The translations under genes and the position numbers were made by a program. The notes beneath the pieces were generated by a model. The model saw only the letters and a program-made list of their open reading frames with translations, was not told the DNA's origin and made no database searches. A stretch of 61,746 bases of DNA, the filler included, from Malassezia furfur (Eukaryota), in NCBI GenBank assembly GCA_052055015.1. It is 2 parts of 2 records of this genome, joined end to end, with 100 filler letters (N's around TTAATTAATTAA, not from the genome) between each part and the next. Parts side by side here need not be neighbours in the genome. Positions count along the whole stretch, not along the records: positions 1 to 30,882 come from JBQJIT010000096.1; positions 30,983 to 61,746 come from JBQJIT010000097.1. One strand, written 5' to 3'. Below are positions 1 through 61,746 of the stretch, piece by piece (within the stretch, counting starts at the first letter, position 1; every line of letters begins with the position of its first letter).

Positions 1-1387
1 CGGCGGCGACAATGGCGGCGACGCGCGCGCCGCGGCCGCCGACGCACGTGCGGCGCCCGACGCGTTCGCCACGACGCGCTGCACGTCGAGCAAAAGACCG
101 GTCGTGCCGTGGCACACGAGGTCCGATGTGCCTTCGGCGTGCAGGCCCACAACGGGCAGGCCGGACGCGAGCGCCTCGAGGACGACCTGCCCGAACGTCT
201 CGGTGAACGACGGGAACGCAAAGATGCTGCTGCTCGCGAACATGGACGCGAGGCGCTTGCCCTTCTGGTGCCCCATGAACGCGGCATCCAAGCCGTAGCG
301 CGCGCACAGCCGCGTCAGTTCGCCGCGCGCCGGGCCGTCGCCGACGATAACGAGCTTTGCATTGTCGCGCACGCTCGCGGGGAGCAGGCGGAACGCCTCG
401 ATGAGCAGCCGGATGTTCTTCTCCCAGCTGATGCGCCCGACGTACAGCACAACGGCCTTGCTGTTGGCGTCCTGCGCGGCGCTGCGCGGGTCGGCGCTCG
501 CGACGACGGGCGGCGGCAGCGCAAACGGCATCGAGAGCGGCGGTAGGTCGCTCAGACTCTCGTACGCGGGCGGGGGGCTCAGGTAGGGCGACAGTGCGGG
601 GAGGCTCTCGGGCGTGTGGATAAACGTGTCGACCTCGTCGAGCTTGCGGCTGGCCGCCTGGTCGTACAGCGTGTCGAGCAGCGCCTGGCTCTTGGGCTTG
701 CAGTCCCAGCTCGCGCGCAGGTTCTCGTCGCGCGCGCCGGGGTTGAACAGGCCCGTGTCCACGCCGCGGCTCCAGATCTCCACGTTGCGGAAGCCCTTGT
801 CGTGGAGCATGTGGCGTGTCGACTCGCTCGGACAGAACACAATGTCGCATTGGTCGTGCTGCGCGCGGATCAGCTTCCACATGACATTCTCAATGAACGG
901 CAGGCCAAACAGCGATGCATACGTCGGCAGGTTGGTGTGGTACGACGACACGCACGGCACGTCGGGCAGAATCTTTTTGACGACCCACATCATCTGCACA
1001 CCGAGCCAGATCGGATCGACAAAGTGCACCACGTCCGGGCGGAACTGTTGCAGGCGACGGACGAAGCGCAGGCGCAAAAAGTTGAGCTTCAGGCCGGGAT
1101 ACACGAGCAGGGGGAACCCAAACGTGCCGACCACGGGATGGCCAGAGTACTCGGTGAGGCCCGTGTCCGGGCCGAGCACGAGCGCCTCGTTTCCCTCGGC
1201 ATGCAGGTGCTCTAGTAGGCGCGCAAGCGTACGCGTCACACCATCAATCTTCGGCAGGAAGTTTTCTGGGCGTCAGCGGGCGAGCAAGCGCACCTGTCAC
1301 GATCGCAACGCGGAGCTTCCGTCGCTTGCGGTCGGTCGGATAAGGATACGACACCGCCTGGAGGGCGACGTCCGTCTCAGAACGCAT
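1..1387 (-). CDS. GT4 (GT-B) glycosyltransferase, MgtA/PimB/SQD2-like; 3' end runs off the window; intron 1266-1293 (28 nt)
   Basis: Spliced reading gives RVAIVT|ENFLPKIDGVTRTL...SYHTNL...SRGVD...LYVGRISWEKN...IVGDGP...FPSFTETFGQVVLEALASGLPVV (GT4 E-x7-E motif). The frame is open to base 1. Confidence 0.85.
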
Positions 1388-1579
1388 CGTGGTGGGACTG
1401 GGCAAGTGAGCACCTCGCCAAATACGGAGAACCAAGGCACAATCAGGCAACACCGTGTGCCCCAACCGCCGTGCGCGAGCGAACGTGCGTGAATTAAATC
1501 AGCCTTGCCACAGCACGTGGGGGGCCGCACGTTCCCGCGGCCGCGGCACCTGGCGCGCGCGCGTCCCTCCACCCCCCCG

Positions 1580-3286
1580 ATGGATTTTACCGGGGCGTAC
1601 GCGCATGCGGGGAGCGAGACGGTGCGCTTCTCGCCGGGGTCGACGTTCCTCGCATACGTCGGCGGCGCGCACCGCAGCGAGGTGGTGGTGCGCGTGACAG
1701 GCACGCTGCAGGTCGTGCGCTCCTGGTCGCTCGCGTCCGCGCTCCAGTCGCTCACGTGGTCGCCCGATGGCCTTTTTTTGCTCGTGAGCGCGTACGGACG
1801 GCAGGGCGTGTCGTACGTCCTGCCCCTCGACCCAGACGCAGGCGTCACCGATGGGTCAGACGATAACCAGGGTTGGGTCGCGCGCATCGCCGGGGGGGTC
1901 GCCGGCATCGAACACGCACAGTGGGTGCCCATCTGGCGCGTGCCTTCGGTGATGCAGTTTACGCGCGACACCGGCGCCGTACTGTACTCGCTTGCCGACC
2001 AGGCATTCACCGCGTTTCCCCACACGGTCCTGCCCAAACGTACGCTCGCATGCACTTATGCAGTGTTTCCACACTCTTCCCCCGAAATATTTTGCCTCGT
2101 GCAGCGCGAGCGAACGCACGCAGCGCTCGCGCTCTACACTCCGGCATCCACCGACGCACCGTCGATGGATGAGCCGGTGGCCTGGACCCTGTACAAGGTA
2201 CGTGGCGCGCTGACGCAGGCCATCACGCTGCACACCACCGAGCCCATCGGTGTCGCTTGGAGCCCCGATGGCAAGCTCGTCGCCGTATGGGACTACGAGC
2301 TAGAGTACCGCGTGTGCCTCTACTCACTGGCGGGTACACACCTTGCGACGTTTGCCATTGATGCCGACAGCGATCGGCCCGCATCCGAGATTGCCGTCAT
2401 GCCCGACGAGGCACGTGCTGTGCTCGCCGAGCGTCCGCTCAGCGCCAGCCGCGCACGACGAACGCCGATGCGCGCATCGCGGTCCGGTACCTCCTGGCAG
2501 ACGGCAAGCACGTCGCGGCGCACAAGCCATGCGCTCTCGGCACGCATCGCCGGTGGGGGTCTGGGTGTGCGCACCGTCGCGTGGCATCCCCTGAGCACGT
2601 TTCTGGCCGTGGGCGGCTACGATGGTCGCATTCGCGTGCTGTCGAGCGAAGACTGGTCCGAGGCATTTGTGCTCAGCACGCACCGCGCAACCCTCGCTGC
2701 CCCGCACGTCTCAGCGGTGGTCTGGCGCGAGCCACGGCGGTGGTTCGAGGCGACGCAGGGGCAGGGGATCGTGTCGCTCGAGCGCGATGAGCTGCCGATC
2801 GACCCCCCGACGCCGCGCCAGGACGATCCACTCAAAAGCGGAGTGTGCTGGCTCGAATGGAACGGCGACGGCAGCATTCTCGCGGCACGCAACGAGGCGC
2901 TGCCCAGCACCGTATTTGTCTACACGTTTGAGGGCCTGGCGGAGCGCAGCATCGATGCACGCCTCTCGCTCCACGCGGTCCTCGTTCTTTCTTCCCCCAT
3001 CTACTCGCTCGCGTGGAAACCCGATCAGCACGGAACGCTGGCGATCGTGTCGGGCCAAAGTGCCGTATACCTCTACTCTACCCAAGGCACGGGCGAACAG
3101 TCCGCGGAGGCGATCGCGATCCCTAATGGTGCGTGGTCCACCACTCACGCAGAACATTTCAGCGCAACGCGGCTCACCTGGTCGCCCGACGGGCATGCGT
3201 TGTTGCTAGCTGACGCGACGTCGTTTTGCTGTGTTGTTCCGGCGGCACCCATTGATAGATCCATGTCCCCGCCGAAACTGGTATAG
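1580..3286 (+). CDS. WDR8: WD40-repeat protein, WDR8/WRAP73-like; probable in-frame introns 2040-2063, 2198-2218, 3129-3152
   Basis: MDFT...VRFSPGSTFLAY N-terminus, repeated WSPDG motifs, LGVRTVAWHP..FLAVGGYDGRIRVL, LAARNEALPSTVFVY. Three GT...CTNAY...CAG inserts of 21-24 nt. Confidence 0.75.
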   Translation: MDFTGAYAHAGSETVRFSPGSTFLAYVGGAHRSEVVVRVTGTLQVVRSWSLASALQSLTWSPDGLFLLVSAYGRQGVSYVLPLDPDAGVTDGSDDNQGWVARIAGGVAGIEHAQWVPIWRVPSVMQFTRDTGAVLYSLADQAFTAFPHTVLPKRTLACTYAVFPHSSPEIFCLVQRERTHAALALYTPASTDAPSMDEPVAWTLYKVRGALTQAITLHTTEPIGVAWSPDGKLVAVWDYELEYRVCLYSLAGTHLATFAIDADSDRPASEIAVMPDEARAVLAERPLSASRARRTPMRASRSGTSWQTASTSRRTSHALSARIAGGGLGVRTVAWHPLSTFLAVGGYDGRIRVLSSEDWSEAFVLSTHRATLAAPHVSAVVWREPRRWFEATQGQGIVSLERDELPIDPPTPRQDDPLKSGVCWLEWNGDGSILAARNEALPSTVFVYTFEGLAERSIDARLSLHAVLVLSSPIYSLAWKPDQHGTLAIVSGQSAVYLYSTQGTGEQSAEAIAIPNGAWSTTHAEHFSATRLTWSPDGHALLLADATSFCCVVPAAPIDRSMSPPKLV

Positions 3287-3422: not shown

Positions 3423-5014
3423 ATGTACGCCGACCGAGAGGAGTCGTTACGTGGCCCGCCGGGCGCGGGCGCGCGCGGTGCGCCGAGGCATGACCTGGCA
3501 GAGCGTGAGCGTGAATTGCAGGAACAGCTCCGGCGCCGTGCGGTCGAGTCGCGGCGGCACGGCGGAGCGGATTCGGCGTCCCCGCGCTCGCCAGGACGTC
3601 ACGATAACCGCACGATGCGGCGACGTGGCGACGATTCTTATAGCGACGCCCACGCTCGTGACTATGGGCGCCGTGATGCACCGCCGCCGCGCGACCATTA
3701 TGGACGTGGCCGCTACGATGATTACCGCCGCGACGACTACCGCCGCGATGACTACCGCCGTGACGACTACCGTCGCGACTCATTCCGCCGGGATGATTCC
3801 CGCCGTGACACTGGTCGCCGCAGTGCGAGCCCGCCGGGCGCGCGCGATGGAAGCCGTGCGGACGACTACGAGGCACGCTCTGTGTTCTGCTCGCAGCTGC
3901 CGCCGCAGGTGGGCGAGCGCGACTTGGGTGAGTTCTTTGAGGAGTCGCTGGGGAAGGACACGGTTTCCTTTGTGCAGCTGGTATACGACTACCACCATGG
4001 AAACAACACGCACACGGCATTCGTGGAGCTCACCTCGCCCGAGCTGATGTACAAGGCGAATGCGCTGAATGGGCACACTATGTTTGGCCAGCCCATCACT
4101 GTCCAGAGCGCCGAGGGCGCGCGATACCATGCGACGTCGGACTTGTACCTGATTCCCAAGGAGGGGCACGCACGTGCGCCCAGCCCGCGCGCGCGCAGTG
4201 GCTCGGGTCACCCTCCGCCGCCGCAAGCCGGTACGTCGACGCGTCTCTATGTGGGCAACCTGCACTACGACATTGGATCCGAGCAGGTTCGTGCCGTGTT
4301 TGAGCCATTTGGTGAAATTGAGGAGGCCGAAGTGTACTACGACCATGCGACGGGCAAGAGCAAAGGGTTTGCGTTTGTGCAGTTCAAGAGCGCCGACGAT
4401 GCGCAGCGTGCAACGGAGCAGCTGAACGGGTTTGAGCTGGCCGGTCGCCAGATGCGTGTGAGCACCTCCAAGGCGCGAATTTCCGGTGGTGGCGGCCGCG
4501 AGCGCGGTGGTGCGCCGCTCACGACGCGCTTTGACGAAGGCGGTGGTGGCGGCGTCAACTCGGCAGACAAGCGCATTGCGCTGATGGAAAAGCTGGCGCG
4601 TACCGACCCGCAGTCGCAGGAACCGTACGTATGGGTATGCTGACACAGTGCGCGCCCCGCCTCGATTCCTCGTGCGACCAGCGCGGCGCTCTTGCTCAAG
4701 TACATGTTTGACCCTGCCAAGTACGTGCGCACAACAACTGACCATGCAGGGAAACGGGCGATTGGGCGAACGAGCTGCGCGACGATGTGCGCATGGAAGC
4801 CGAAAAGTATGGACCCGTCCGGCACGTGTTTGTCGAGAAGGATAGCCCCGACGGCGAGGTATACGTGTCGTTCGGCGATGCCGAGCATGCTCAGCAGGCG
4901 CGCAATGCACTCCATGGTCGCTACTTTGGCGGTCAACGCATCGAAGCCAACTTGTACGTATGCGGCGGCTCACCCAGCGTGCCAGAGGCGTTTGTCCAGG
5001 CGAAGCTCGGTTAG
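3423..5014 (+). CDS. RBM39/RBM23 (CC1/Rsd1)-like splicing factor: RD/RS-rich N-terminus, 2 RRMs and a UHM; introns 4625-4648, 4721-4749, 4954-4977
   Basis: RSVFCSQL, RLYVGNLHY..., GKSKGFAFVQF. The spliced C-terminus reads LLKYMFDPAKETGDWANELRDDVRMEAEKYG...GRYFGG (UHM). Confidence 0.85.
3717..3809 (+). repeat. Coding 15-nt tandem repeat (RRDDY)n in the RBM39-like gene
   Basis: About 6 degenerate GAYGAYTACCGYCGY units. Confidence 0.7.
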
Positions 5015-5044: not shown

Positions 5045-6365
5045 ATGGCCACGCCGCCAGAGGCGACAAGCGCGTCCGGTTCCGGCGGGTTATGGATATG
5101 CGATGTGGCAGGATGCGGGAAGACGTATAGAAAAGAGTCTCGACTCATAGAACACCAACGGTCCCATACAGGAGAGGTACGTTGGATCTCCTCTTACGCA
5201 GCGGCCGTATCCCTGCTCCCACCCCGGATGTGGCGCGGCGTACATGCGCGCGACGCACCTCGCAGCGCACGCGCGGTCGCATATGGACCCAGCTGAGAAG
5301 CCATTTCCGTGCACATATGGATGCGACAAGGCGTTCTGGACCGCGCAGCATCTCCGCCGTCACATTGTGTCGTGCCATGCGAGCAACGAAGCGGTGCAAG
5401 GCATCACACCGCACGAGCTAGAAGAGATCGGTGGTGGCGCAACCTCGGGTTTATACCGGTGCACCGAATGCGAACGTCTTTTTCCCAAGCGCAAGCACCT
5501 CCGGCAGCACCTGCGAGAAGTTCACGCCGATCCCCAGGACTCCAACCCATTTCCCTGCACGCACCCAGGCTGCACGCGTCGATTCCCCACATATACCAAA
5601 CGCCAGCAACACCTGCGTGTCCACGACAAGACGCGATACATGTGTACGCAGCCGCACCGCGAGCTCGTTACCTTTTCGACCTGGCTCGAGCTCCAGAAGC
5701 ATGTGCGCGAGTGCCATCCGCCACAATGCCCCCGCCCCGAGTGTGCACAGAGCTTTGCAAGTCGCGAAAACCTGCGCAAACACATGCGGATACACGAACG
5801 AAACGATCGCGCTCGCAAGGGGCAGGTCGTCGATGACCATGCAGGCGCCGACGATGCGGCGTACAGCTCCGACGACGGGTCCATGGCGCCCGATCCAGAT
5901 GAAGCGGCGAGCTGGCGCTGTACGTGGAACGGGTGTAACCGCGTGCTGAGCAGCCCTTATGCACTCAAGGTGCATGTTGCGCGCGTCCATCGACAGGAGA
6001 AACCGTTTGTGTGTGACGCGTGTGGGCAGCGGTACGGCTACAAGCACCTGCTGCGCCAACACATGCGCCGCACACACGAGCAAGAGCTAACCACAGAGCT
6101 GGACGTATCGCTGCCGTACCTCGGACCGCTGCTGGCCACCGAGAAGCGGCGCCGCACGGTACGTGAGCGGATTTTGCCTTGCCCTTGGGACCAACTCGCG
6201 GGCGGTGGTGCGGAGGCCGCATGCTCTGCGCGCTTCTCGCGGCTGTACGACCTGCGCAGGCACATGGAGAGCGTGCATGCGTTGTGCGTGCGCGAAGATG
6301 AGCTGGCGCAGTTGTTCCCCGACGAGGTGGAGCAGCTGCCGAAAAAGCGGGGTAGATGTCGCTAG
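5045..6365 (+). CDS. PZF1: Transcription factor IIIA (about 10 C2H2 zinc fingers); intron 5177-5201 (25 nt)
   Basis: Tandem C2H2 fingers, HTGE|RPYPC after splicing, and the fungal TFIIIA-type motif FSTWLELQKHVRECHPPQC. Confidence 0.8.
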
Positions 6366-9312: not shown

Positions 9313-10071
9313 CTATGAATACGATTGAAGCCGGAGCGACTTGCGCGGTCGCTGGTTCGGCGACGAGCCGAGGAACGCGTCAGAGTCAGGGTCGTCTGTT
9401 GGTTAGCGCGCCTGGGGGTGGGGGGACACGAACGTACTTGCTTCCAGCGTGTACACCGACACGGTATCATCGCCGGATTCATGCACGCCATCAATGATAT
9501 AGGGGGGCATGCCCGAATGGCAGTGCAGCAACTGGAGACCGAGCCAGTCGAGATAGTCGTCGTCCTCACCCAGCAGCTCGTCTTCGTCGTCCTCTTCAAC
9601 ATCGCCTTCCGCATCGTCCTGTTGGTACGCAATCGACGACACATAGCCGCCAGGCAACACGCGGTACGACGCCGGCGACGAGTCGTAACCCAACGCCAGG
9701 TCCCGGAGCCACGTGCCCAGAGCCGAGCTCGGCGCACGGCCCGGAAGCCAGGTCGGACGCTCATCGTCGAACGGCTCCTCGCTGTCAGCAGAGTCGATAT
9801 GGTCTAGGAGGTATTGTGCTGCGAGAAGGCGTTCGTCCTCAATGTCGTGGCCAAGAACCGCGAGCAGGCGCCGGCCCATGGCGTCTGCAAACAGGTCGTG
9901 GTCCATCAGCCGGTCGATGTCGGCAATGATGGATGCGTCTTTTGTCGGTGGGTCATCGAGCATATAAAGAAGGGAAGAAAGACTCTCCCTCTCCGAAATC
10001 CGCGATGGCTGCACGTTCGACAGCGTCGAATCGGGCACGTCCGAGACTTCTTCGACAATGACCGTGACCAT
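9313..10071 (-). CDS. Acidic hypothetical protein; intron 9396-9437 (42 nt)
   Basis: Long open frame from MVTVIVEEV. A GTACGT...GCTAAC..CAG intron joins a short terminal exon ending RPRKSLRLQSYS*. Confidence 0.6.
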
Positions 10072-10328: not shown

Positions 10329-11618
10329 ATGCCGAAGGCGCTCGTATGCTTCCCTGGTGCGCCATATACCGAGCAAGCCGCGCGTGCCGCGGCAGACACA
10401 GTGCTGGAGGGATGGGAGGTACATACCCCTAAGGAAGCACCCGGAGATGCTGATGCAACCCCGCCCGGGTACGACGCCTACATTGTCGATTACGACCTTC
10501 TTCCTTTTGATGATCTCGCCCTGCAAAATGCCCTGTGCAGCAGTTACTACATCCGCAAGGCCCTTATTCGTAAGCACCACCTTGCACAGGCCTTGCATAT
10601 GTTCGGTGTGAAGCGCGGCGTGCCCGTGGATGTGATACCACACACATGGACGCTGGACGTCCAATTTGCAGACGAGCTTGACGAGCTCTTGGCGGACGAC
10701 CTCTACGATGTGCGCGACGCGCTCGTTGCGAACGAGTCATCCAAAGACACTGCCTGGTTCATTCTGAAGCCAGGTATGGCGGATCAAGGCAACGGTATTC
10801 AACTCTTCTCTTCGCTCGAACGTCTGCAGCAGATATTCGAAGAGATGGAGGATGCAAGCGACGACGAAGACAACGAAGAGAGCACCTATGCAAGTCATTT
10901 GCGCCATTTCGTTATACAGCAATACTTGGTACCTCCCATGCTCGTGGCGCCGAGCGAGGGAGGCATGCGCAAGTTTCATTTGCGAGCATATGTGATTTGC
11001 GTCGGAGGCCTGGCCGTGTACCTCCACGACGATATGCTTGCCTTGTTTGCCTCGGTTCCCTACTCGACTCCTTCTGAGGATGGTGACTTGCAGGGTCACC
11101 TGAGCAATACGTGTCTGGGTGAGCGCGAAGCAAAGGCACGCGGCGTGCCAGTACTCCCCAACGTGTTCCGACTGCGCGATCTTCTCGGCAAAGAAATTAG
11201 CACGCCGGAGTCTTCCACTGGTACCATGTCGCAGGCGCATCTGGATGCGATCCACCGGGGGGCAGTCGCAGCGATCGGCACCGTCTTTGAGGCCGTTGCG
11301 CGTGAAGCTTCGGTGCACTGGCAAATGTGGCCCAACGCGTTTGAGATTTTCGGTGTAGATCTGATGGTGACGGCCGATCCCAGTTTGTCACCCGAGTCGC
11401 TGCATGTGTGGCTTCTGGAGATCAATGCAGTATGTCCGCATCTAACACAGCAACCCGACTTTAAGCAAAGCGGCGAAGCGCTGCGAAAAACCATTGAACA
11501 CGTGTTCCAACGGGCACTTCAACTGGGGGTGCTGCGTTCCGAGTCGCCATGGACAAAGGAAGAGAGTCGCGATGGCGTCACTTGTTGCTTTGCAGAAGAA
11601 ATGGTGAAGGATGCATGA
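10329..11618 (+). CDS. Tubulin-tyrosine ligase (TTL/ATP-grasp) family protein, Pby1-C-like; in-frame intron 11430-11450 (21 nt)
   Basis: SSYYIRKALIRKH, WFILKPGMADQGNGI, FVIQQY, RKFHLRAYV, FEIFGVD, WLLEINA|QPDF. Confidence 0.88.
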   Translation: MPKALVCFPGAPYTEQAARAAADTVLEGWEVHTPKEAPGDADATPPGYDAYIVDYDLLPFDDLALQNALCSSYYIRKALIRKHHLAQALHMFGVKRGVPVDVIPHTWTLDVQFADELDELLADDLYDVRDALVANESSKDTAWFILKPGMADQGNGIQLFSSLERLQQIFEEMEDASDDEDNEESTYASHLRHFVIQQYLVPPMLVAPSEGGMRKFHLRAYVICVGGLAVYLHDDMLALFASVPYSTPSEDGDLQGHLSNTCLGEREAKARGVPVLPNVFRLRDLLGKEISTPESSTGTMSQAHLDAIHRGAVAAIGTVFEAVAREASVHWQMWPNAFEIFGVDLMVTADPSLSPESLHVWLLEINAVCPHLTQQPDFKQSGEALRKTIEHVFQRALQLGVLRSESPWTKEESRDGVTCCFAEEMVKDA

Positions 11619-33689: not shown

Positions 33690-34045
33690 ATGCCCAAGGA
33701 GCCTAAGCAGAAGGTTGCTACCAGCACACGCAAGACCAAGTCCAAGAAGGACCCCGCGGCGCCAAAGCGGCCGCTGAGCGCGTACATGTTCTTCAGCCAG
33801 GATTGGCGGGAGCGCGTCAAGTCGGAGAACCCCGATGCAGGCTTCGGTATGTGCATGGCACGCTGACCCCAGGTGACGTCGGTCGTCTGCTCGGTACCAA
33901 GTGGAAGGAGATGAGCGAGGACGAAAAGAAGCCGTACATCGACATGGCCAATCGCGATAAGGAGCGTGCCGAGGCCGAGAAGGCTGCTTATGCGGTACGT
34001 GTGCATACTGTGTACCCGCAATGCTGACCGCAGAACAAGGAGTAG
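33690..34045 (+). CDS. NHP6: HMG-box non-histone chromatin protein; introns 33847-33872 and 33995-34033
   Basis: [48 protein letters not shown]...KKPY. Confidence 0.93.
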
Positions 34046-48052: not shown

Positions 48053-48540
48053 ATGACGACTATCCCGGCGCGCTTGGCGAGGGCCACCCAGGTCTCTTCG
48101 TCGCTGGCACACGCGCAGAGCCGCTCGCGCTCGCTCTATCGTGCGTTCTATCGTGCTGTACGTGGTGCTTGTTCTCTCACACCAGGCTCCCGAGATTTGT
48201 GCGCTCTACCCGCTTGATGTGCCGCCGGCCATGCTCCGGGCCAAGATGCGCACCATGTTCGAGCAGAACCGCCATGTGCGCGATGTCGCTGTGCTCGATG
48301 TATTGCTCCTGAAGGCGCAACAGGAGTACCAGGAGACTATGAATGCGTGGAAGCAGACGTCGCATGTCATGAAGTGGTTCACAGAGGAAGAGGTACGTAT
48401 GCCTAGCCCCTGACTGACGCAGGCGCCTCGTACGTTGTCCATCCATGCGCGACTAACCTACAGCCAAGCCCAAGGGCTTTTTGGAGAAGTTCTACGCAAC
48501 GCGCGACGAGGGCCGTGGCCCGACGCACGAGGGGCTTTAG
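48053..48540 (+). CDS. NDUFA6: Complex I accessory subunit B14 (LYR family); introns 48158-48185, 48393-48422, 48430-48463
   Basis: SLYRAFYRA|APEI..LY, FEQNRHV.D...D.LL.K..QEYQETMN.WKQ.SHVM, FLEKFY. Confidence 0.92.
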
Positions 48541-50638: not shown

Positions 50639-52192
50639 ATGATGTTGAGCTCTGTGCTGAAGCGCTCGCCGCAGCTCTCTACTAAGGTATGGTTACAAAA
50701 CTCACACCAGGCTCTGAAGCAGCCGCTTACGCTCCCGCGTCTGCTGCCCATTGGTGCTGCGCCGCTGGCTCGTGGCTATGCCTCGAGCTCGGAGCCATAC
50801 GATGTCATTGTGATTGGTGGTGGCCCCGGTGGCTACGTGGCCGCGATCAAGGCCGCGCAGGGTGGTCTGAAGACTGCATGTGTTGAGAAGCGCGGTGCGC
50901 TTGGTGGTACCTGCTTGAACGTGGGCTGTATCCCTTCCAAGTCGTTGCTGAACAACTCGCACATCTTCCACCAGACGCAGCACGACCTCAAGAACCGCGG
51001 TATTGACGTCAGCGAGGTCAAGTTGAACCTGCCGCAGATGCTCAAGGCGAAGGAGAGCTCGGTCACTGCGCTCACCAAGGGTGTCGAGGGCCTGTTCAAG
51101 AAGAACAAGGTCGACTACCTCAAGGGCACAGCCAGCTTCGCGAGCCCTACGACGGTGGACGTGAAGCTGAACGATGGCGGTGAACAGCAGATTGAGGGCA
51201 AGAACATTATCATTGCGACTGGCTCTGAGGTGACGCCCTTCCCTGGTGTGGAGATCGACGAGGAGCAGATTATCAGCTCGACGGGTGCGCTCTCGCTCAA
51301 GGAGGTGCCTGAGAAGATGGTCGTGATCGGTGGTGGTGTGATCGGTCTGGAGCTCGGTAGCGTGTGGAGCCGTCTGGGCGCCAAGGTGACCGTGGTTGAG
51401 TTCCAGGACGCGATTGGTGGCCCCGGTCTGGACAGCGAGGTGAGCCAGCAGTTCAAGAAGCTGCTCGAGAAGCAGGGCATCCAGTTCAAGCTTGGCACTA
51501 AGGTGAACGGGATTGAGAAGCAGGATGGCAAAGTGATGGTCCGCACCGAGGGCAAAGACGGCAAGGAGCAGGACTACGACGCCAACGTTGTGCTCGTGTC
51601 CATCGGTCGCCGCCCGGTGACGAAGGGCTTGAACCTCGAGGCGATCGGCGTTGAGCTTGATAAGAAGGGCCGCGTGGTGGTGGACGATGAGTTCAACACG
51701 ACGTGCAAGGGTGTCAAGTGCATTGGTGACGCGACGTTCGGCCCTATGCTTGCGCACAAGGCCGAGGACGAGGGTATCGCCGTTGCTGAGATGCTCGCGA
51801 CCGGCTACGGCCACGTCAACTACGACGTGATCCCTGCGGTGATCTACACGCACCCCGAGATTGCGTGGGTCGGCAAGTCGGAGCAGGAGCTCAAGAACGA
51901 TGGCGTGCAGTACAAGGTGGGCAAGTTCCCCTTCCTGGCCAACTCGCGTGCTAAGACCAACGTCGACACCGACGGTTTTGTCAAGTTCCTCGTGGAGAAG
52001 GACACCGACAAGATTCTCGGCGTGTTCATCATCGGTCCGAACGCCGGCGAGATGATTGCCGAGGCTGGCCTGGCTATGGAGTACGGTGCGAGTGCAGAGG
52101 ATGTCGCGCGCACCTGCCACGCGCACCCGACGCTCTCGGAGGCCTTCAAGGAGGGTGCGATGGCCGCCTACTCGAAGCCGATTCACTTTTGA
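50639..52192 (+). CDS. LPD1: Dihydrolipoamide dehydrogenase (E3), mitochondrial; in-frame intron 50687-50710 (24 nt)
   Basis: [41 protein letters not shown]. Confidence 0.97.
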
Positions 52193-53739: not shown

Positions 53740-55670
53740 CTAGATACCCTCGTTTTCTACAATTTTGCGGCTTTGTTGCAAGACCTGAACTTGTGCGCCA
53801 CTGAACCGCTCGCTCTCACTTCGAACGCTCACCGTCTCGCGACCCCCTGCGCCTTGGCCCAGCAGAGCGCTACGTGGAGGCTGGCGCTGGAAGAATCGCG
53901 GCGGGACATTCACTGGTGTGCCCTGGTAGGGGCCCATGTAAGGCTGGGGTGCACCGGGCACATTCGACCAGCCAGGGGCATACATGGTACCACCCATAGG
54001 GGCATACGGATTGGATTCCATGTTGGGTGCAACGTAGGGGACACTGGGGAACATGTGCATTGATGTGTTGTACGGCGGAGCGTACATAGCTCCGTAATCA
54101 ACCGGGTACCCAACACCATGGGGCAAGAAATAGGTTCCGTTCGGCGACGCTTCGTAATAGGGCGACATAGACACTGAACCCATGTAACCATTCCCCATGG
54201 GTGTTGAACCGAAGTGCGCTGGCAGGGGACTCGGAACAAACCCCGCTGGGGACATGGGCGGCGGTATACTGAGGGCCCTGTGAGGTGACGGTGCCGTGGC
54301 TGATGCGCCTTCGGGGTGTACGGAATACGGTGTGGACAGACCGGCGTCTGCACCGGAATGTCCAAATGTTTTGGCACGGCGCGCCACATTCGGGGGTGTC
54401 TTGGGCCGGAGATCTTCACAAATTTGTGAAAATGGCAAGATGTTTGTGCGGAAGTTCAATTGACATCCCGGTGGATCAAAGCCGAAACGGGTGGGGTATA
54501 GTGCCGAGAGCACCTCGGGCGGATGACGCGGATCCGGCGACCAGTCGGGAAATTGGGGACCCAGCTCTGTTCCGACTGTAAGCCAGCCTCGCCTTAAATT
54601 GCGGTTCGTGCCGAAGAGTTCCAAACGGCGGGTCCCAAGACAAAAGTTTTCCGCAATGGTATAGAGCTCGTGTGGTTTTTTGAGCGGTGAAATGATATCC
54701 ATCCCCGCATTGATCGTCTCACCAGGCCACAGAATGACATCGGTGTCAATGTTACAATGCACAAAGAACGAGTCGGTGCTCCGCACAACCGTCCCCCGAA
54801 TGCCCATAAGGCAGTGCTGCACCGAATTTCGCAACAAAGATGTGGTGGACTCTGCCCTATCACCCTCTTTGCTCGTACGAATCCACACAATATCTTCACA
54901 ACGTCGATACCCCCATTTCTGCAACACTTCGCGCCCACGCTCCAGGCCGTCGTTGTTGCCAGAGCCCACCCAGAGAAAAATAAAACTGTCGTGGGATGCC
55001 AGTTGGGGAATGGGCAGCGCCGCAATCTCATCCCAAGACCACGTTGGCGTATTTGGCAGACTCGGCTCATCCCATTTGTACGATGCAAGCGGTGGGTCTA
55101 GCATAATCACATCGTAGGCCATGCCCGTGAGCTCAGATGGCAGAGAACGATGCACCCAATGCTTCAGATCGGTTTTGTGGTACGTCGGAGGGATAGCCGT
55201 ATGCTCGACAATCTCTGCTTTCGCATGAATGAGACGGCGTAGCTTGGGATGTCTGTATGAGATGCGTACGATACGTACTCGACAAAGCGCGTCTCGGGCG
55301 ATACGTTTTGGACCCAGGTGCCAGGAAGGACCGTGAGACCCGAGTCGACATAGTATTGGTTGTAGTCGTTGTAGACTAGTTCTGCCTCTTCTTCGAGTCG
55401 GTCCGAGTCCGCATCCATCTGCTTGTCATCTGCCGAAGCCACGACGGACGTGAGGCGAAGCGACGTGAGCGCATTCATAGCGTCTTGGACGCCGTCTTGC
55501 TTGTCTGCCAGTGCATGTACGCGCGACTTTCCAAGGCCAAGCTCGTACCATTGTGGATGATCCGCAGCATGGATGAACCCCCGCTCTTGCACGCCGGGCC
55601 GCAGGATCTCGAGGACGTCGGCATGCCGAGAACGGATCTCGTGCCTGAAACGCCCACGGTCTGGCGGCAT
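53740..55670 (-). CDS. METTL14: MT-A70 family m6A writer subunit, METTL14/Kar4-like; intron 55253-55278 (26 nt)
   Basis: NDYNQYYVDSG..P, RFVE|HPKLRRL...PPTY..TDL, DVIMLDPPL, FLWVG..GLERGR.VL.KWGYRRCEDIVW, HCLMGIRGTV.RSTD..FVHCNIDTD, ENFCLG.RRL.LFG. Confidence 0.88.
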
Positions 55671-58050: not shown

Positions 58051-58988
58051 CTATTCCGTATGAAGTGGGTCGCAGTCCTTTTCCGAGACGTGCACCGTCA
58101 GCTCGGGGAGCTGGTCGCGCAGCAACGGTGCAAAGAGCGAGCGGAAGTAACGGCGCTCGGTGTTGCTGTGGTTCGTCAGGATGACCGAGATGCCCTGCGC
58201 GACGGCGGCGAGCACCTCGTGGTGCCCGAGTTCGCCCGTGACCCACACATCGGCGTCCTTGGCCTGGCGGAGTACACTGCCGCCGCTACCAGCGCACACG
58301 GCGACGCGGCGCATCGGTGTGTCTACCGACACGTCCTGGCCGAGCGCGACGTGCACGGCATCGATGGCAAAGTGCTCCTTGGCGCGTGCGATCAGCGTAC
58401 GGATGGGCACGGGGTCCTCGAGCGAAAAGACGCGTCCCATGCCCTCGGACTCGGTGCGGGCGTTGGGGATGGGCTCGATGGGCTGCGCCTTGGTGCCCTC
58501 GCGCACGGCCTGGTAGAGGGTGTCGTCGAGGAGCGGCTCCTTCTCCCATGCATGCTGGAGGCCTGCGACAATCCAGTCGTTGATGCCGCCGTCGATGGCG
58601 TCGAGGCACGTGTGGGGGCAGTAGATGCTGATGCCCGCGGCGACGAGGCGGAGGATGGAACGCTGCAGTGGCTGCGCGAGCGTCAGCGAGCGCACCGGGC
58701 TAAAGATGACCGGGTGGTAGATGATGGCGGTATTTACGTCCGGCAGTGCGAGCGCCTCCTCGGCGACGTCCGTGGTGAGGTCCACTGCGAGGAAGACACC
58801 GCGGCCGGTGCGGGGCACGGGCGATTCTGGGTGAGTGGGCGCGGATGCGTACGAGCGATCAGGCCGACATTGTCCCAGCTCCCAGCGAGGCGCGTGGGTG
58901 CTGCGTCAGACGTGCTGTCCTGCGTACCGATCAGCTGCAAAAAGTCGACGACGCGGCGCAGCGTCGGATCGCGTGCGAGATGGGCCAT
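58051..58988 (-). CDS. NIF3: NIF3 (NGG1-interacting factor 3) family protein; introns 58901-58927 and 58827-58852
   Basis: AP.RLA.SWDNVGL, DLT, IIYHPVIF, IYCPHTCLD, GINDW, GMGR, VAVCAGSGGS, TGELGHH, HSNTER, DCDPL. Confidence 0.93.
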
Positions 58989-59056
58989 CGTGCGCGGTCG
59001 CTCGGACCCATCATCACGTGCACGCGATTTTTCGGTGGCGCTTGTGGTGAGCGACG

Positions 59057-61746
59057 ATGCACGGCGGGGGCAGCGCGGCCGACGGCATGCGCCGCGTCGT
59101 GGAGGAGGCCGAGGCGGCTCGCAAGCGGCTCGGCGACCCGGTGAAGACGATCGAGGATAAGTGGATGCTGCTCCCCGCGTTCCTGCAGGTGAAGGGCCTG
59201 GTGAAGCAGCACATTGACTCGTTCAACTACTTTGTGGACGTCGACCTACACAACATCCTGCGCGCCAACGAGCGGGTGACGGTACGTGTGTGTGCGCTGA
59301 TGGCAGTCGGACATCGACCCCAAGTTCTACCTCAAGTACACCAACATCTCGGTCGGGCGCCCCGAACGTGCGGACCCTGACGCAATTGACCGGAGCATTA
59401 CGCCGCACGAGTGTCGTCTGCGCGACATTACGTATAGCGCGTTCATCTACGTGGACATCGAGTACACGCGCGGCGGCAAGATTGTGCGGCGGAAGAATGT
59501 GCCGATCGGGCGGCTGCCCATCATGCTGCGGAGCAACAAGTGCTGGCTCGCGGGCCAGGACGATGCGGCGCTCGCGCGCATGAACGAGTGCCCGCTGGAC
59601 CCCGGTGGGTACTTTGTGGTGAAAGGCACCGAAAAGGTGATTCTGGTGCAGGAGCAGCTGTCCAAGAACCGCATCATTGTCGAGGCGGACGCGCGCAAAG
59701 GCCTCGTGCAGGCGTCGGTCACCAGTTCGACGCACGAGCGCAAGTCGAAGTCGTACGTCTTGACGAAGCACGGCCTGATCTACGTCAAGCACAACTCGCT
59801 GCACGAGGACATCCCGATCGTGGTCGTGTTCCGTGCGCTCGGCATCCAGTCCGACCGTGAGATCCTGCAGCTGGCCGCGGGGCAGGACGAGACGTACGCG
59901 GAGCTGTTTGCGGTCAACCTGGAGAAGGCTGCCAAGCTCGAGGTGTTTACGCGGCGGCAGGCGCTCGAGTACATTGGCGCGCGCGTCAAGATTATGCGGC
60001 GCGGCGTCGGTCTGCGGCGCTCCGCCGTCGATGAGGCGCTCGATGTGCTCGCGACGGTGATCATGGCGCATGTGCCGGTGGACAACTTTGACTTCCGCAA
60101 CAAGGCGATCTACATCGCGGCCATGGTACGCCGCGTGCTTGTGTGTATGGTGGACGAGAGCAAGGTGGACGACCGCGACTACGTGGGCAACAAGCGTCTC
60201 GAGCTGGCCGGCCAGCTGCTCGCGCTGCTGTTTGAGGATCTGTTCAAAAAGTTCAACCACGACTTGAAGACGAACATCGACAAGGTGCTCAAGAAGCCGA
60301 ACCGCACCGCCGAGTTTGACGCGTACAACCAGTTCTTCTACCACGGCGACTACATCACCGCGGGCTTTGTGCGCGCGATCTCGACGGGCAACTGGAGCTT
60401 GAAGCGCTTCAAGATGGAGCGCGCGGGGGTGACGCACGTGCTGTCGCGCCTGAGCTACATCAGCGCGCTCGGCATGATGACGCGCATCAGCTCGCAGTTC
60501 GAAAAGACACGCAAGGTGTCGGGCCCGCGTGCGCTGCAGCCGAGCCAGTGGGGCGTGCTGTGCCCCTCGGACACGCCCGAGGGCGAGGCGTGTGGGCTGG
60601 TCAAGAACCTTGCGCTGATGACGCACATCACGACCGATGTCGACGAGGCGCCGATTGTCAAGCTGTGCTACACGCTCGGCCTCGAGGACATCAATTTGCT
60701 CACCGGCGCCGAGCTGTACCAGCCGTCGATGTACGTCGTGTACCTGAACGGCAACGTGCTCGGCGTGACGCGCACGCCGCAGCGCTTTGTTGCGCAGTTT
60801 CGGCGCGTGCGCCGCGGCGGACACGTGTCGGCGTTTGTGGGCATCTACACGAATGCGCACCAGCGCACCGTGCACATTGCGTCCGATGGCGGGCGTATCT
60901 GCCGCCCGATGATCATCGTCGAGCGCGGGCAGCCGCGCGTGCGCAGCGAGCACATGCACGCGCTGCAGGCGGGGCGCATGGTGTTTGACGATTTCCTGCG
61001 TGCGGGCCTCGTCGAGTACCTGGACGTGAACGAGGAGAACGACAGCAACATTGCGCTGTTTGAGCACAACATCCACGCCAACACGACGCACCTCGAGATC
61101 GAGTGCTTCACGATCCTCGGTGCGGTCGCCGGCCTGATCCCGTACCCGCACCACAACCAGTCGCCGCGCAACACGTACCAGTGCGCGATGGGCAAGCAGG
61201 CGATCGGTGCGATTGCGTACAACCAGCTGAACCGCATCGACACCCTGCTCTACCTCATGGTGTACCCGCAGCAGCCGATGGTCAAGACCAAGACCATCGA
61301 GCTGATTGGCTACGACAAGCTGCCCGCGGGCCAGAACGCGATGGTCGCGGTGATGAGCTACTCGGGCTACGACATCGAGGATGCGCTCGTGCTCAACAAG
61401 GCGTCGCTCGACCGCGGTTTTGGGCGCTGCCAGGTGATGCGCAAGCAGTCGACCGTGTTGCGCAAGTACGCCAACGGCACGTTTGACCGCCTCGCCGATG
61501 CGCCGCTCACCGATGCCGGCGAGCGCATGCGCCGCTTCGAGGCGCTCGAGCCAGACGGCATCGCGGGCGCGGGCGAGCGCCTCGAGCCGGGCGACGTGTT
61601 TGTCAACAAGCAGACACCCACGAATGCCAACGACAACAGCGCAGGCACCATGCTCGACACCACCGTGATGTACAAGAGCGCCCCGCTCTCCTACAAGGCG
61701 CCCGTCGAGGGCTACGTCGACCAGGTGCTCGTGAGCGACACCGACT
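59057..61746 (+). CDS. RET1: RNA polymerase III second-largest subunit (RPC2), runs off the window; intron 59282-59306 (25 nt)
   Basis: [95 protein letters not shown]. Confidence 0.96.

What the first reader, a model, noticed from the sequence alone, without database searches (positions are those of the whole stretch)
1266..59306. Window-wide miniature spliceosomal introns (21-30 nt) with no polypyrimidine tract
Seen: restoring conserved protein frames by hand needs about 59 introns, of which about 53 are 21-30 nt. The shortest are 21 nt (2198-2218, 11430-11450, 35077-35097). The architecture is GTRYGY, a short spacer, a CTNAY branch, 2-5 nt, then YAG, so the 5' splice site and branch point are only about 10-20 nt apart. 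Established: Malassezia are known for short introns, and the 20-30 nt class is otherwise typical of Paramecium, microsporidia and chlorarachniophyte nucleomorphs. It is well below the spacing a canonical yeast or human spliceosome needs. Inference: this fungus has a spliceosome adapted to very tight lariats, perhaps with altered U1/U2/SF3b/U2AF use, and would be a tractable model for it.
Basis: partly seen in the sequence, partly recalled or inferred. Interest (0 to 1): 0.8.

Follow-up and report, generated by a model that had tools for sequence, protein, structure and literature searches.

The report
Malassezia's known tiny spliceosomal introns
This stretch of a Malassezia yeast chromosome really is peppered with about fifty introns only 21-30 bases long, but such miniature introns are already documented for this genus, so the finding is real yet largely ordinary.

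Summary
The window is nuclear DNA of a Malassezia yeast; the best named relatives are M. obtusa, M. psittaci and M. yamatoensis. I curated 56 intron candidates. 49 are supported, and 44 of those 49 are 21-30 nt, with a median of 25. 20 are fixed to the residue by ortholog, Pfam or PDB collinearity, including all three claimed 21-nt introns. The architecture is GTACGT-like donor, a spacer of at least 6 nt, a CTNAY branch motif, 1-4 nt, then YAG. The branch A lies 5 nt from the 3' end in 33 of 49. There is no pyrimidine tract. The full motif occurs 67 times against 5.3 +/- 2.4 in shuffles.

The novelty does not hold. The curated, RNA-seq-backed M. sympodialis annotation has 5350 introns with a mean of 30 bp. 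M. restricta annotators set the minimum intron length to 15-20. Lack of a pyrimidine tract is usual in fungi, and an anchored branch-to-AG spacing is known from Yarrowia, Trichomonas and Giardia.

The inferred "adapted spliceosome" could not be tested. No genome and no RNA reads were available. No paper found addresses the mechanism in Malassezia.

The parts
1266..1293 (-). 28-nt intron, GT4 glycosyltransferase gene (class B)
   Evidence: Frame-shifting. It joins a 31-aa exon to the exon whose Glyco_transf_4 hit starts at residue 6. Motif.
2040..2063 (+). 24-nt intron, WRAP73/WDR8-like WD40 gene (class A; in frame, stop-free)
   Evidence: An 8-residue segment is absent from 4 of 5 NCBI-annotated Malassezia orthologs and all 5 Agaricomycete orthologs. 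M. nana's annotated protein retains a segment here.
2198..2218 (+). 21-nt intron, same gene (class A; in frame, stop-free)
   Evidence: Exact 7-residue gap in all 5 annotated Malassezia and 5 Agaricomycete orthologs.
3129..3152 (+). 24-nt intron, same gene (class A)
   Evidence: The 8 residues are absent from the orthologs, and the downstream exon is then collinear. The gene finder's 3129-3162 was wrong.
4625..4648 (+). 24-nt intron, triple-RRM protein gene (class C)
   Evidence: In-frame stop inside; strong motif.
4721..4749 (+). 29-nt intron, same gene (class B)
   Evidence: Frame-shifting. RRM_1 positions 13-69 start at residue 11 of the next exon.
4954..4977 (+). 24-nt intron, same gene (class C; in frame, stop-free)
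   Evidence: Motif only.
5177..5201 (+). 25-nt candidate at the start of a C2H2 zinc-finger ORF, 5202-6362 (uncertain)
   Evidence: Motif; zf-C2H2 hits in the ORF. The upstream exon was not defined.
9396..9437 (-). 42-nt intron, gene of unknown family (class C)
   Evidence: In-frame stop inside; strong motif.
11430..11450 (+). 21-nt intron, tubulin-tyrosine-ligase (PBY1-like) gene (class A; in frame, stop-free)
   Evidence: Exact 7-residue gap inside the conserved LLE.NA|QPDF block in 12 of 12 annotated orthologs aligned.
16024..16046 (+). 23-nt intron, BolA-like gene (class C)
   Evidence: Frame-shifting; motif.
16109..16130 (+). 22-nt intron, BolA-like gene (class B)
   Evidence: BolA profile 31-76 begins at residue 1 of the next exon.
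17223..17246 (-). 24-nt intron, trehalose-6-phosphate synthase (TPS1) gene (class B)
   Evidence: In-frame TAA inside. Glyco_transf_20 profile 2-165 lies upstream and 183-471 downstream.
18605..18656 (-). Intron of 52 nt, or 25 nt (18605-18629), in a Usp-like gene (uncertain donor)
   Evidence: Both donors keep the frame. Not resolved.
18493..18515 (-). 23-nt intron, Usp-like gene (class C)
   Evidence: Frame-shifting; motif.
18390..18412 (-). 23-nt intron, Usp-like gene (class C)
   Evidence: Frame-shifting; motif.
20762..20789 (-). 28-nt intron, gene of unknown family (class C)
   Evidence: Frame-shifting. It joins two high-scoring coding segments.
20028..20052 (-). 25-nt intron, same gene (class C)
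   Evidence: Frame-shifting. It joins two high-scoring coding segments.
22157..22185 (+). 29-nt intron, short-chain dehydrogenase gene (class C)
   Evidence: In-frame stop inside; motif.
24618..24639 (-). 22-nt intron, QNS1 (NAD synthase) gene (class A)
   Evidence: The spliced N-terminus is collinear with 5 orthologs.
24464..24485 (-). 22-nt intron, QNS1 (class A); flanks the 10-nt micro-exon 24454-24463
   Evidence: CN_hydrolase profile 2-43 | 49-255 with 5 residues between; collinear with orthologs.
24428..24453 (-). 26-nt intron, QNS1 (class A)
   Evidence: As above.
22459..22480 (-). 22-nt intron near the QNS1 C-terminus (class C)
   Evidence: Frame-shifting; motif. The C-termini of the orthologs vary, so the junction is not fixed by homology.
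27966..27994 (-). 29-nt intron, DUF7137 gene (class C)
   Evidence: Frame-shifting; motif.
31649..31815 (-). EF1-gamma-like gene: one 167-nt intron, or two of 54 and 80 nt (uncertain)
   Evidence: The gene finder gave 167 nt with a 200-nt limit and 54+80 nt with a 90-nt limit. Pfam does not decide.
32818..32854 (+). 37-nt intron with a T14 run, proteasome subunit gene (class C)
   Evidence: In-frame stop inside; motif. It is the only intron with a T tract.
33335..33361 (-). 27-nt intron, LSM/Sm-fold gene (class A)
   Evidence: LSM profile 1-25 | 30-65, with exactly 4 residues between.
33087..33115 (-). 29-nt (or 34-nt, 33082-33115) intron, LSM gene (acceptor uncertain)
   Evidence: Motif. The first-AG rule favours 29 nt. 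Not verified.
33847..33872 (+). 26-nt intron, HMG-box gene (class A)
   Evidence: HMG_box profile 1-26 | 30-68, with exactly 3 residues between.
33995..34033 (+). 39-nt intron, HMG-box gene (class C)
   Evidence: In-frame stop inside; motif.
35077..35097 (-). 21-nt intron, CTP1-like mitochondrial carrier gene (class A; in frame, stop-free; GTGAGT donor)
   Evidence: The 7-residue segment is missing in 11 of the 13 relatives aligned. P0146 is a read-through and P0162 carries its own longer insertion there. Same result in tblastn.
34952..34974 (-). 23-nt intron, CTP1 (class A; AAG acceptor)
   Evidence: Ortholog collinearity GNA.K|AGVRF.
34873..34894 (-). 22-nt intron, CTP1 (class A)
   Evidence: tblastn frame switch at the junction.
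34755..34780 (-). 26-nt intron, CTP1 (class A)
   Evidence: tblastn frame switch at the junction.
34460..34482 (-). 23-nt intron, CTP1 (class A); flanks the 19-nt micro-exon 34441-34459
   Evidence: The orthologs need 7 residues between the flanking exons.
34415..34440 (-). 26-nt intron, CTP1 (class A)
   Evidence: As above.
34220..34248 (-). 29-nt intron, CTP1 (class A; TAG acceptor)
   Evidence: The downstream reading 'YE...' matches the orthologs. The gene finder's 34211-34248 was wrong.
39091..39247 (+). 157-nt intron, multi-RRM protein gene (class A); its first 21 nt mimic a mini-intron
   Evidence: RRM_1 profile 1-25 ends 2 residues before the donor, and 30-70 starts at residue 3 after the acceptor. 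Sequence.
41082..41107 (-). 26-nt intron, Med10 gene (class C)
   Evidence: Frame-shifting; motif.
40976..41000 (-). 25-nt intron, Med10 gene (class B)
   Evidence: Med10 profile 63-94 fills the 34-aa exon between this intron and the next.
40850..40872 (-). 23-nt intron, Med10 gene (class B)
   Evidence: As above.
43379..43420 (-). 42-nt candidate, in frame and stop-free, gene of unknown family (uncertain)
   Evidence: Motif only, with a weak GTGCGC donor.
45376..45398 (-). 23-nt candidate inside a LIM-domain ORF, 45228-46334 (uncertain)
   Evidence: Motif; LIM hits. The effect on the frame was not resolved.
46797..46822 (+). 26-nt intron, cytidylyltransferase gene (class B)
   Evidence: CTP_transf_like profile 13-130 starts at residue 1 of the next exon.
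47821..47843 (-). 23-nt intron, small RRM protein gene missed by the gene finder (class B)
   Evidence: RRM_1 profile 22-69 starts at the first full codon after the acceptor.
48158..48185 (+). 28-nt intron, LYR-motif gene (class C)
   Evidence: Frame-shifting; motif.
48393..48422 (+). 30-nt intron, LYR gene (class C); implies a 7-nt micro-exon
   Evidence: In-frame stop; perfect motif. The micro-exon is unverified.
48430..48463 (+). 34-nt intron, LYR gene (class C)
   Evidence: Perfect motif.
49416..49440 (-). 25-nt intron, SIT4/PP2A-like phosphatase gene (class A)
   Evidence: The exons abut at residues 83|84 of human PP2A-C. The Pfam count agrees.
49252..49273 (-). 22-nt intron, SIT4 (class A, by residue count)
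   Evidence: PP2A-C residues 131-157 (27) equal the 26-aa exon plus one split codon. The 26-aa exon alone gave no PDB hit.
49148..49171 (-). 24-nt intron, SIT4 (class A, by residue count; TAG acceptor)
   Evidence: As above; the next exon starts at PP2A-C residue 158.
50687..50710 (+). 24-nt candidate in the presequence of the dihydrolipoamide dehydrogenase gene (uncertain)
   Evidence: Weak GTATGG donor; in frame and stop-free. Not testable by homology.
55253..55278 (-). 26-nt intron, MT-A70 methyltransferase gene (class C)
   Evidence: Frame-shifting; motif. The gene continues to 53743.
58901..58927 (-). 27-nt intron, NIF3 gene (class C; in frame, stop-free)
   Evidence: Motif.
58827..58852 (-). 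26-nt intron, NIF3 gene (class B)
   Evidence: DUF34_NIF3 profile 37-254 starts at residue 8 of the next exon.
59282..59306 (+). 25-nt intron, RNA polymerase second-largest-subunit gene (class B)
   Evidence: RNA_pol_Rpb2_1 profile 1-28 lies upstream and 40-202 downstream. The coding score is high on both sides.

Best explanation
These are ordinary U2-type (GT-AG) spliceosomal introns in the miniaturised form that is typical of the whole genus Malassezia. Each intron is little more than three packed signals. The first is a strong intronic 5' splice site, GTACGT or a close variant. The second, after a spacer of 6-15 nt, is a CTNAY branch motif. The third is the first YAG, which follows 1-4 nt after the branch motif. 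The branch adenosine is therefore usually 5 nt from the intron's end and 16-25 nt from its start.

Inferred mechanism. Recognition is by intron definition and rests almost wholly on the intronic sequence. The 3' site is probably taken as the first AG at a fixed short reach from the branch, as in the anchored branch-AG motifs of Yarrowia, Trichomonas and Giardia. The 21-nt floor equals 6 (donor) + 6 (minimum spacer) + 5 (branch motif) + 1 + 3 (YAG).

What is shown and what is not. The positions, lengths and motifs are shown, and so is the fact that removal restores collinearity with orthologs. Lariat formation, the order of U1/U2 binding and any change in spliceosome proteins are inferred, not shown.
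For: Organism. The best named hits are Malassezia species.

Junctions. 20 introns are fixed to the residue:
- WRAP73, 3 introns
- TTL, 1
- CTP1, 7
- QNS1, 3
- SIT4, 3
- LSM, 1, and HMG, 1
- multi-RRM gene, 1
Of these 20, 19 are 21-29 nt. A further 10 have the same Pfam domain continuing across a junction that shifts the frame or carries a stop. Another 19 have motif plus frame necessity only.

Statistics. The motif is enriched 67 against 5.3 +/- 2.4, and matches split 56 sense to 3 antisense.

Anatomy.

Genus-level precedent. M. sympodialis has 5350 curated introns with a mean of 30 bp, 99% with RNA-seq support. M. restricta was annotated with a minimum intron length of 15-20. A review speaks of 'very short introns'.

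Precedent for the 3' end. The source paper states that most fungi lack a pyrimidine tract, and that branch-AG spacing is anchored at 2 nt in Y. lipolytica and 4 nt in T. vaginalis and G. lamblia.
Against: There is no RNA evidence for this window.

Seven of the 49 introns are multiples of three without an in-frame stop. These could in principle be translated when retained. For two of them (4954-4977, 58901-58927) only the motif speaks for splicing.

Nineteen of the 49 rest on my own gene finder, which chose a wrong acceptor in 2 of the cases that could be checked against orthologs. It also invented 2 introns and split the 157-nt intron into two false short ones.

M. nana's annotated WRAP73 protein keeps a segment at the 2040-2063 site.

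The M. sympodialis paper gives a mean, not the mode. Its distribution figure could not be read as text.
Confidence: 0.93

Rival explanations
1. One reading: Malassezia has a structurally adapted spliceosome that makes very tight lariats possible. The changes would be altered or lost U1, U2/SF3b or U2AF parts, or trimmed branching factors. This adds to the best explanation rather than competing with it.
For: The spacing is far below what the canonical early complex is said to span. The human A complex is reported to occupy 79-125 nt, and the shortest human introns shown to be spliced are 43-56 nt. Here the branch A lies 16-25 nt from the 5' site in 44 of the 48 short introns, and no pyrimidine tract exists. 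For Stentor's 15-16-nt introns a published conjecture proposes steric-clash avoidance through non-conserved regions of branching factors (abstract).
Against: Nothing in the window bears on it. No snRNA gene is present and no genome is held. Stentor keeps all snRNAs and most proteins (abstract). Myxozoans with introns under 30 bp keep U2AF1/2 (passages). Tiny introns therefore do not by themselves imply losses. Fungi in general lack the pyrimidine tract.
Confidence: 0.25
2. Some of the in-frame, stop-free segments (7 of 49) are not introns. They would be short coding insertions that merely resemble the motif.
For: The whole WRAP73-like gene reads as one open frame, 1493-3283. ORF-based protein predictions from unnamed assemblies read straight through these segments (P0001-P0003, P0026-P0028). 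M. nana's annotated protein keeps a segment at one of the sites.
Against: For 5 of the 7, the segment is exactly absent from annotated orthologs inside conserved blocks, including non-Malassezia fungi. In close relatives the read-through peptides keep the letters that encode the splice signals (V at the start, L-T-Q at the end) while the middle varies. Full-motif matches are about 12 times more frequent than in shuffles.
Confidence: 0.05
3. The interruptions are artefacts or non-spliceosomal elements. They would be assembly frameshifts, pseudogenes, DNA-level eliminated sequences as in ciliates, or endonuclease-type (tRNA/HAC1-like) introns.
For: None beyond the small size.
Against: All 49 carry GT...AG with an extended donor and a CTNAY branch motif at a fixed place. 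They are strand-specific to the genes. They occur at the same sites in related species. The one tRNA intron in the window is of a different kind.
Confidence: 0.01

Closest known systems
Annotated introns of other Malassezia species (M. sympodialis curated annotation, PMC5389616; M. restricta re-annotation, PMC6473144)
   Same: Same genus by best protein hits. Same order of size: a mean of 30 bp over 5350 introns, 99% RNA-seq supported, and annotation with a minimum intron length of 15-20. Introns sit at the same sites in annotated orthologs.
   Different: This window comes from a different, GC-richer species (0.62); the closest named QNS1 is M. obtusa at 87%. The passages I read from those papers give no motif, branch spacing or length mode, so the explicit anatomy given here is not taken from them.
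Anchored branch-point-to-AG 3' ends of Yarrowia lipolytica, Trichomonas vaginalis and Giardia lamblia (Irimia and Roy 2008, PMC2483917)
   Same: A strong CTRAY-type branch consensus, no pyrimidine tract, and a branch site at a nearly fixed, very short distance from the terminal AG. The spacing is 2 nt in Yarrowia and 4 nt (ACAC) in Trichomonas and Giardia. Here it is A-C-N-C before AG in 33 of 49.
   Different: The Yarrowia introns listed in that paper are long; its table lists values of 204 and about 269 in what I take to be the median and mean length columns. Only the 3' end is compact there. Here the whole intron is compact. Malassezia was not in that survey (0 occurrences).
Ultra-short intron lineages: Paramecium and Nyctotherus (about 25 nt), Stentor (15-16 nt), microsporidia, dicyemids, myxozoans, chlorarachniophyte nucleomorphs
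   Same: A modal length under 30 nt, a narrow distribution, GT-AG ends, and an unresolved steric question about how the early spliceosome fits.
   Different: The introns here are GC-rich (0.58), whereas my recollection is that ciliate introns are AT-rich. They carry a near-invariant, explicit branch motif. They show no clear shortage of stop-free multiples of three (7 of 49). The shortage in Paramecium is also recalled, not read here. A 2026 survey of introns under 30 bp names ciliates, microsporidia and dicyemids but not Malassezia.

Membership tests
U2-type (major) GT-AG spliceosomal introns | GT at the 5' end and AG at the 3' end | tested here: met
   49 of 49 supported introns.
U2-type (major) GT-AG spliceosomal introns | Extended 5' splice site of the GTRNGT kind | tested here: met
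   GTACGT 29, GTACGC 5, GTGCGT 4, GTATGT 4, GTAGGT 3, GTGTGT 2, GTGCGC 1 and GTGAGT 1, out of 49.
U2-type (major) GT-AG spliceosomal introns | Branch motif CTRAY-like, upstream of the 3' site | tested here: met
   CTNAY in 49 of 49, with the A 5-8 nt from the 3' end. The branch nucleotide itself was not mapped.
U2-type (major) GT-AG spliceosomal introns | Removal restores the reading frame and collinearity with orthologs | tested here: met
   20 introns fixed to the residue.
U2-type (major) GT-AG spliceosomal introns | Excision from RNA as a lariat by the spliceosome | not testable with these tools
U2-type (major) GT-AG spliceosomal introns | Polypyrimidine tract between branch and 3' site (animal and plant type) | tested here: not met
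   Only 1-4 nt lie between the branch motif and YAG, and T is 0.06 of those bases. The source paper says most fungi lack the tract, so this does not exclude membership.
Malassezia genus-typical mini-introns | Host genome is a Malassezia | tested here: met
   The top named hits are Malassezia species in three genes.
Malassezia genus-typical mini-introns | Length near the published mean of 30 bp | tested here: met
   The median is 25 and 44 of 49 are 21-30 nt, against the mean of 30 bp in M. sympodialis.
Malassezia genus-typical mini-introns | RNA-seq support for the junctions | not testable with these tools
Anchored branch-AG 3' motif class (Yarrowia, Trichomonas, Giardia) | Near-fixed, very short branch-to-AG distance with a strong branch consensus and no pyrimidine tract | tested here: met
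   The A-to-3'-end distance is 5 nt in 33, 6 in 9, 7 in 6 and 8 in 1, out of 49. Definition taken.
Anchored branch-AG 3' motif class (Yarrowia, Trichomonas, Giardia) | Intron-poor genome | tested here: inconclusive
   The window holds about 49-56 introns in about 43 genes. M. sympodialis is treated as intron-poor in one study. Genome-wide density for this species is unknown.
Paramecium-type tiny introns | Shortage of introns that are multiples of three and lack an in-frame stop (recalled feature, not read here) | tested here: not met
   14 of 49 are multiples of three, and 7 of those are stop-free. The sample is small, and ascertainment is biased against such introns.

The most novel reading that the evidence does not exclude
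Malassezia may be the only easily cultured, transformable, free-living eukaryote in which most introns are GC-rich, 21-30 nt long and built from a fully explicit signal set: donor hexamer, a spacer of at least 6 nt, and a branch motif anchored 5 nt from the end. If so, its spliceosome must assemble on a 5'SS-to-branch spacer of 6-15 nt, which canonical U1 and U2 complexes cannot both occupy. That points either to real changes in early-acting or branching factors, or to a stepwise hand-off that has not been described. The 21-nt floor would then be a measurable steric limit. So would the apparent non-use of a look-alike with a 3-nt spacer at 39091-39111. I found no paper that treats this. A 2026 survey of introns under 30 bp does not list the genus.
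Probability: 0.25. Interest if true: 0.6.

Novelty: already known. Interest (0 to 1): 0.3.

Why it matters
For annotation, it matters in practice. Gene callers with a default minimum intron length, and ORF-based callers used on metagenomes, misread these genes. Several database proteins from unnamed assemblies carry 7-8-residue insertions that are translated introns.

For splicing biology, the genus is an under-used natural test of how small a lariat and how short a branch-to-AG reach the spliceosome tolerates. It also has genetic tools available (the review).

As a discovery in this window it adds little. The length class is already annotated, with RNA-seq support, in sister species.

Tried and rejected
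1. Whole genome: none is held. No genome-wide histogram or spliceosome inventory was therefore possible.

3. A gene finder that required only GT/AG with a flat penalty. It fused neighbouring genes through 100-290-nt false introns and was rejected. With motif scoring and a 200-nt limit it still fused genes. The 90-nt limit was used and then corrected by homology.

4. PDB alignment of the first CTP1 exon. The loop region of ADP/ATP carriers was too divergent to decide on the 21-nt intron. The question was settled with closer relatives.

5. The 26-aa SIT4 exon alone gave no PDB hit. Its junctions rest on the residue count between the flanking exons.

6. Rfam found only one tRNA and no snRNA.

7. 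The scan's earlier notes had nothing on this genome. The one note returned was on Ostreococcus and played no part.

8. The supplement of the M. sympodialis paper holds the length distribution only as a figure.

9. Rejected candidates: 35354-35394 and 54865-54938 are spurious, because the MT-A70 ORF runs on uninterrupted. 39091-39111 as a stand-alone 21-nt intron fails on RRM continuity.

Full report
**What the window is.** The 61,746-nt window has a GC content of about 0.62. It carries two short runs of N at 30883-30926 and 30939-30982. Protein searches with three of its genes put it in the basidiomycete yeast genus Malassezia. The closest named proteins are from M. obtusa (87%) and M. psittaci (83%) for the NAD synthase QNS1, and from M. 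yamatoensis for the WD40 and TTL genes. Everything below therefore rests on sequence, homology and the literature, not on RNA.

**Is the pattern there, and is it more than chance?** A strict pattern was defined as GT[AG][CT]G[TC], 3-25 nt, CT-N-A-[CT], 1-4 nt, [CT]AG.
- It matches 67 times on the two strands.
- In 200 dinucleotide-preserving shuffles it matches 5.34 +/- 2.45 times, with a maximum of 13.
- 56 of the 67 matches are sense to my gene models, 3 are antisense and 8 are intergenic. Nested alternative donors are counted separately.

**Gene models.** A gene finder that knew only GT...AG fused neighbouring genes through long false introns and was discarded. A self-trained version used a codon model plus donor, branch and acceptor weight matrices. 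Its length prior was flat over 15-90 nt, and its seeds were computed from the window itself. It gave 39 gene models and 56 introns, 42 of them 21-30 nt (table).

**Testing the junctions against independent evidence.**

(a) Pfam scans of 80 exon translations. Profile coordinates abut across junctions to the residue in these cases:
- QNS1: CN_hydrolase 2-43 | 49-255, with a 10-nt micro-exon supplying the 5 residues between.
- An LSM gene: 1-25 | 30-65, with 4 residues between.
- An HMG-box gene: 1-26 | 30-68, with 3 residues between.
- SIT4: Metallophos 2-25 | 38-71, with 12 residues between.

(b) WD40 (WRAP73/WDR8-like) gene. It reads as one open frame, so its three candidate introns (24, 21 and 24 nt) are in frame and stop-free. 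I aligned the read-through translation with 12 relatives.
- The 7 residues encoded by 2198-2218 are absent from all five NCBI-annotated Malassezia proteins and all five Agaricomycete proteins.
- The 8 residues of 2040-2063 are absent from nine of these ten; M. nana keeps a segment there.
- The 8 residues of 3129-3152 are absent as well, which shows that the gene finder's 3129-3162 was wrong.

(c) TTL gene. The 7 residues of 11430-11450 fall inside the conserved block LLE.NA|QPDF. They are absent from all 12 annotated orthologs aligned, from Malassezia to Trametes and Rhodotorula.

(d) Citrate-carrier gene (CTP1-like).
- A search of 1.8 billion representatives with the first exon found relatives.
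- The 7 residues of 35077-35097 are absent from 11 of the 13 relatives aligned. P0146 is a read-through. P0162 has its own longer insertion at that point.
- tblastn with three full-length relatives, plus direct reading, fixes seven introns of 21, 23, 22, 26, 23, 26 and 29 nt in a gene of about 1.1 kb. The gene includes a 19-nt micro-exon, one AAG acceptor and one TAG acceptor.

(e) QNS1. The computed spliced N-terminus is collinear with five orthologs.

(f) SIT4. In human PP2A-C numbering, exon 1 ends at residue 83 and exon 2 covers 84-130. Exon 4 starts at 158, and the 27 residues between equal the 26-aa third exon plus one split codon. The third exon alone found nothing.

(g) Multi-RRM gene. 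RRM_1 positions 1-25 end two residues before 39091, and positions 30-70 begin at the third residue after 39247. This is therefore a single 157-nt intron, not the 21-nt plus 58-nt pair that the length-limited gene finder produced.

(h) Genes with weak codon bias that the gene finder missed were recovered by Pfam: a C2H2 zinc-finger gene, a LIM gene, a small RRM gene and the rest of an MT-A70 gene. This added the 23-nt intron 47821-47843, where the RRM profile 22-69 starts at the first full codon after the acceptor. It also exposed two gene-finder introns as spurious.

**Curated result (with two SIT4 introns upgraded).** There are 56 candidates: 20 class A, 10 class B, 19 class C and 7 uncertain.

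| Class | Meaning |
|---|---|
| A | Junction fixed to the residue by homology |
| B | Same Pfam domain continues across a junction that shifts the frame or carries a stop |
| C | Motif plus frame necessity only |

- Of the 49 supported introns, 44 are 21-30 nt, 4 are 34-42 nt and 1 is 157 nt. The median is 25.
- Of the 20 class A introns, 19 are 21-29 nt.

**Anatomy.**
- Donor: GTACGT in 29 of 49. It fits GTRYGY in 45 of 49.
- Exon side: no consensus.
- Branch motif: CTNAY in 49 of 49 (CTGAC 17, CTCAC 13, CTAAC 8).
- Acceptor: CAG in 46, TAG in 2 and AAG in 1.
- Branch A to the 3' end: 5 nt in 33, 6 in 9, 7 in 6 and 8 in 1.
- Spacer between donor hexamer and branch pentamer: never below 6 nt, and 6-15 nt in 44 of the 48 short introns. 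The branch A then sits at position 16-25.
- The 21-nt minimum is exactly 6 + 6 + 5 + 1 + 3.
- Introns are not pyrimidine-rich (Y 0.52 against 0.49 for the window) and are GC-rich (0.58). The longest T run is 3 or less in 47 of 48.
- Fourteen of the 49 are multiples of three, and seven of those have no in-frame stop. There is thus no visible avoidance of 'invisible' retention, although the sample is small.

**How it most likely works.** The signals are those of ordinary U2-type introns, so the economical reading is canonical splicing of miniaturised introns.
- Recognition would be across the intron and would rest on intronic sequence.
- The 3' site would be taken as the first AG within a fixed short reach of the branch. 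In the two cases where orthologs decided between two AGs, the first was the one used.
- These steps are inferred. No RNA was seen.

**Comparison with what is known.**
- The length class is documented for the genus. Table 2 of the M. sympodialis proteogenomics paper lists 5350 introns in the curated annotation, with a mean of 30 bp and 99% RNA-seq support (passages and table read). Its distribution figure could not be read as text.
- The M. restricta re-annotation used minimum intron lengths of 20 and 15 (passage).
- A review says Malassezia genes contain 'very short introns' (passage).
- Irimia and Roy 2008 state that most fungi lack a pyrimidine tract. They also state that Y. lipolytica, T. 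vaginalis and G. lamblia anchor the branch 2 or 4 nt from the AG (passages). The spacing here, A-C-N-C before AG, equals the Trichomonas/Giardia value.
- The steric puzzle is real and open. The human A complex is said to span 79-125 nt, yet 43-56-nt introns are spliced (passages).
- For Stentor's 15-16-nt introns, all snRNAs and most proteins are present, and a steric-clash-avoidance conjecture has been published (abstract).
- A 2026 paper on introns under 30 bp names ciliates, microsporidia and dicyemids as the exceptions and does not mention Malassezia (passages).
- Five searches found no paper on the splice-signal anatomy or the splicing mechanism of Malassezia. This covers only the open-access library searched.

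**Verdict.**
- The phenomenon is already known at genus level.
- What is perhaps under-appreciated is how explicit and regular the Malassezia signal set is, and that the organism is tractable. That is the basis of the novel case, to which I give modest odds.

Noticed in passing
window 1493-3283 (+): The WRAP73-like gene is one uninterrupted open frame although it holds three introns (24, 21, 24 nt), all in frame and stop-free. ORF-style protein predictions from unnamed assemblies (P0001-P0003, P0026-P0028, P0146) read through such introns. They carry 7-12-residue insertions that typically start with V and end with L-T-Q or T-Q, which is the translated splice signals.
   Followed up: partly
window 39091-39111 (+), inside the 157-nt intron 39091-39247: The long intron opens with a complete mini-intron look-alike: donor hexamer, a 3-nt spacer, CTGAC, 4 nt, CAG. 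RRM continuity shows that the productive mRNA does not use it as a stand-alone intron. Its spacer is below the 6-nt minimum seen in all 48 supported short introns. This is a possible natural hint at a steric floor, from a single case.
   Followed up: partly
window 24454-24463 (-), 34441-34459 (-), 48423-48429 (+): Micro-exons of 10 nt (QNS1, supported by orthologs), 19 nt (CTP1, supported by orthologs) and 7 nt (LYR gene, unverified). Each lies between two mini-introns.
   Followed up: partly
window 3289-3379 (+): A tRNA-Ala (TGC) gene of 91 nt, presumably with a tRNA-type intron. It sits between two protein genes and is the only Rfam hit in the window.
   Followed up: no
window 32818-32854 (+): The only intron with a T tract (T14) among 48 short introns. 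It lies in a proteasome subunit gene.
   Followed up: no
window 50256-50278 and 50324-50346 (+); 46393-46421 (+): Further full-motif 23-29-nt modules lie outside my coding models. Two are upstream of the dihydrolipoamide dehydrogenase start and may be 5'-UTR introns or small unmodelled exons.
   Followed up: no
window 5151-6362 (+), 45228-46334 (-), 47145-47864 (-), 53743-55425 (-): Genes with weak codon bias were missed or truncated by a codon-usage-trained gene finder and recovered only by Pfam. They are a C2H2 zinc-finger gene, a LIM gene, a small RRM gene and an MT-A70 gene.
   Followed up: partly
window 30883-30926 and 30939-30982: Two 44-nt runs of N lie where the 3' ends of a Kelch-repeat gene (+) and an EF1-gamma-like gene (-) meet. 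The ends of both models are therefore unreliable.
   Followed up: no
window 34952-34974 (-): An ortholog-supported 23-nt intron with an AAG acceptor, the only non-YAG acceptor among the 49.
   Followed up: partly
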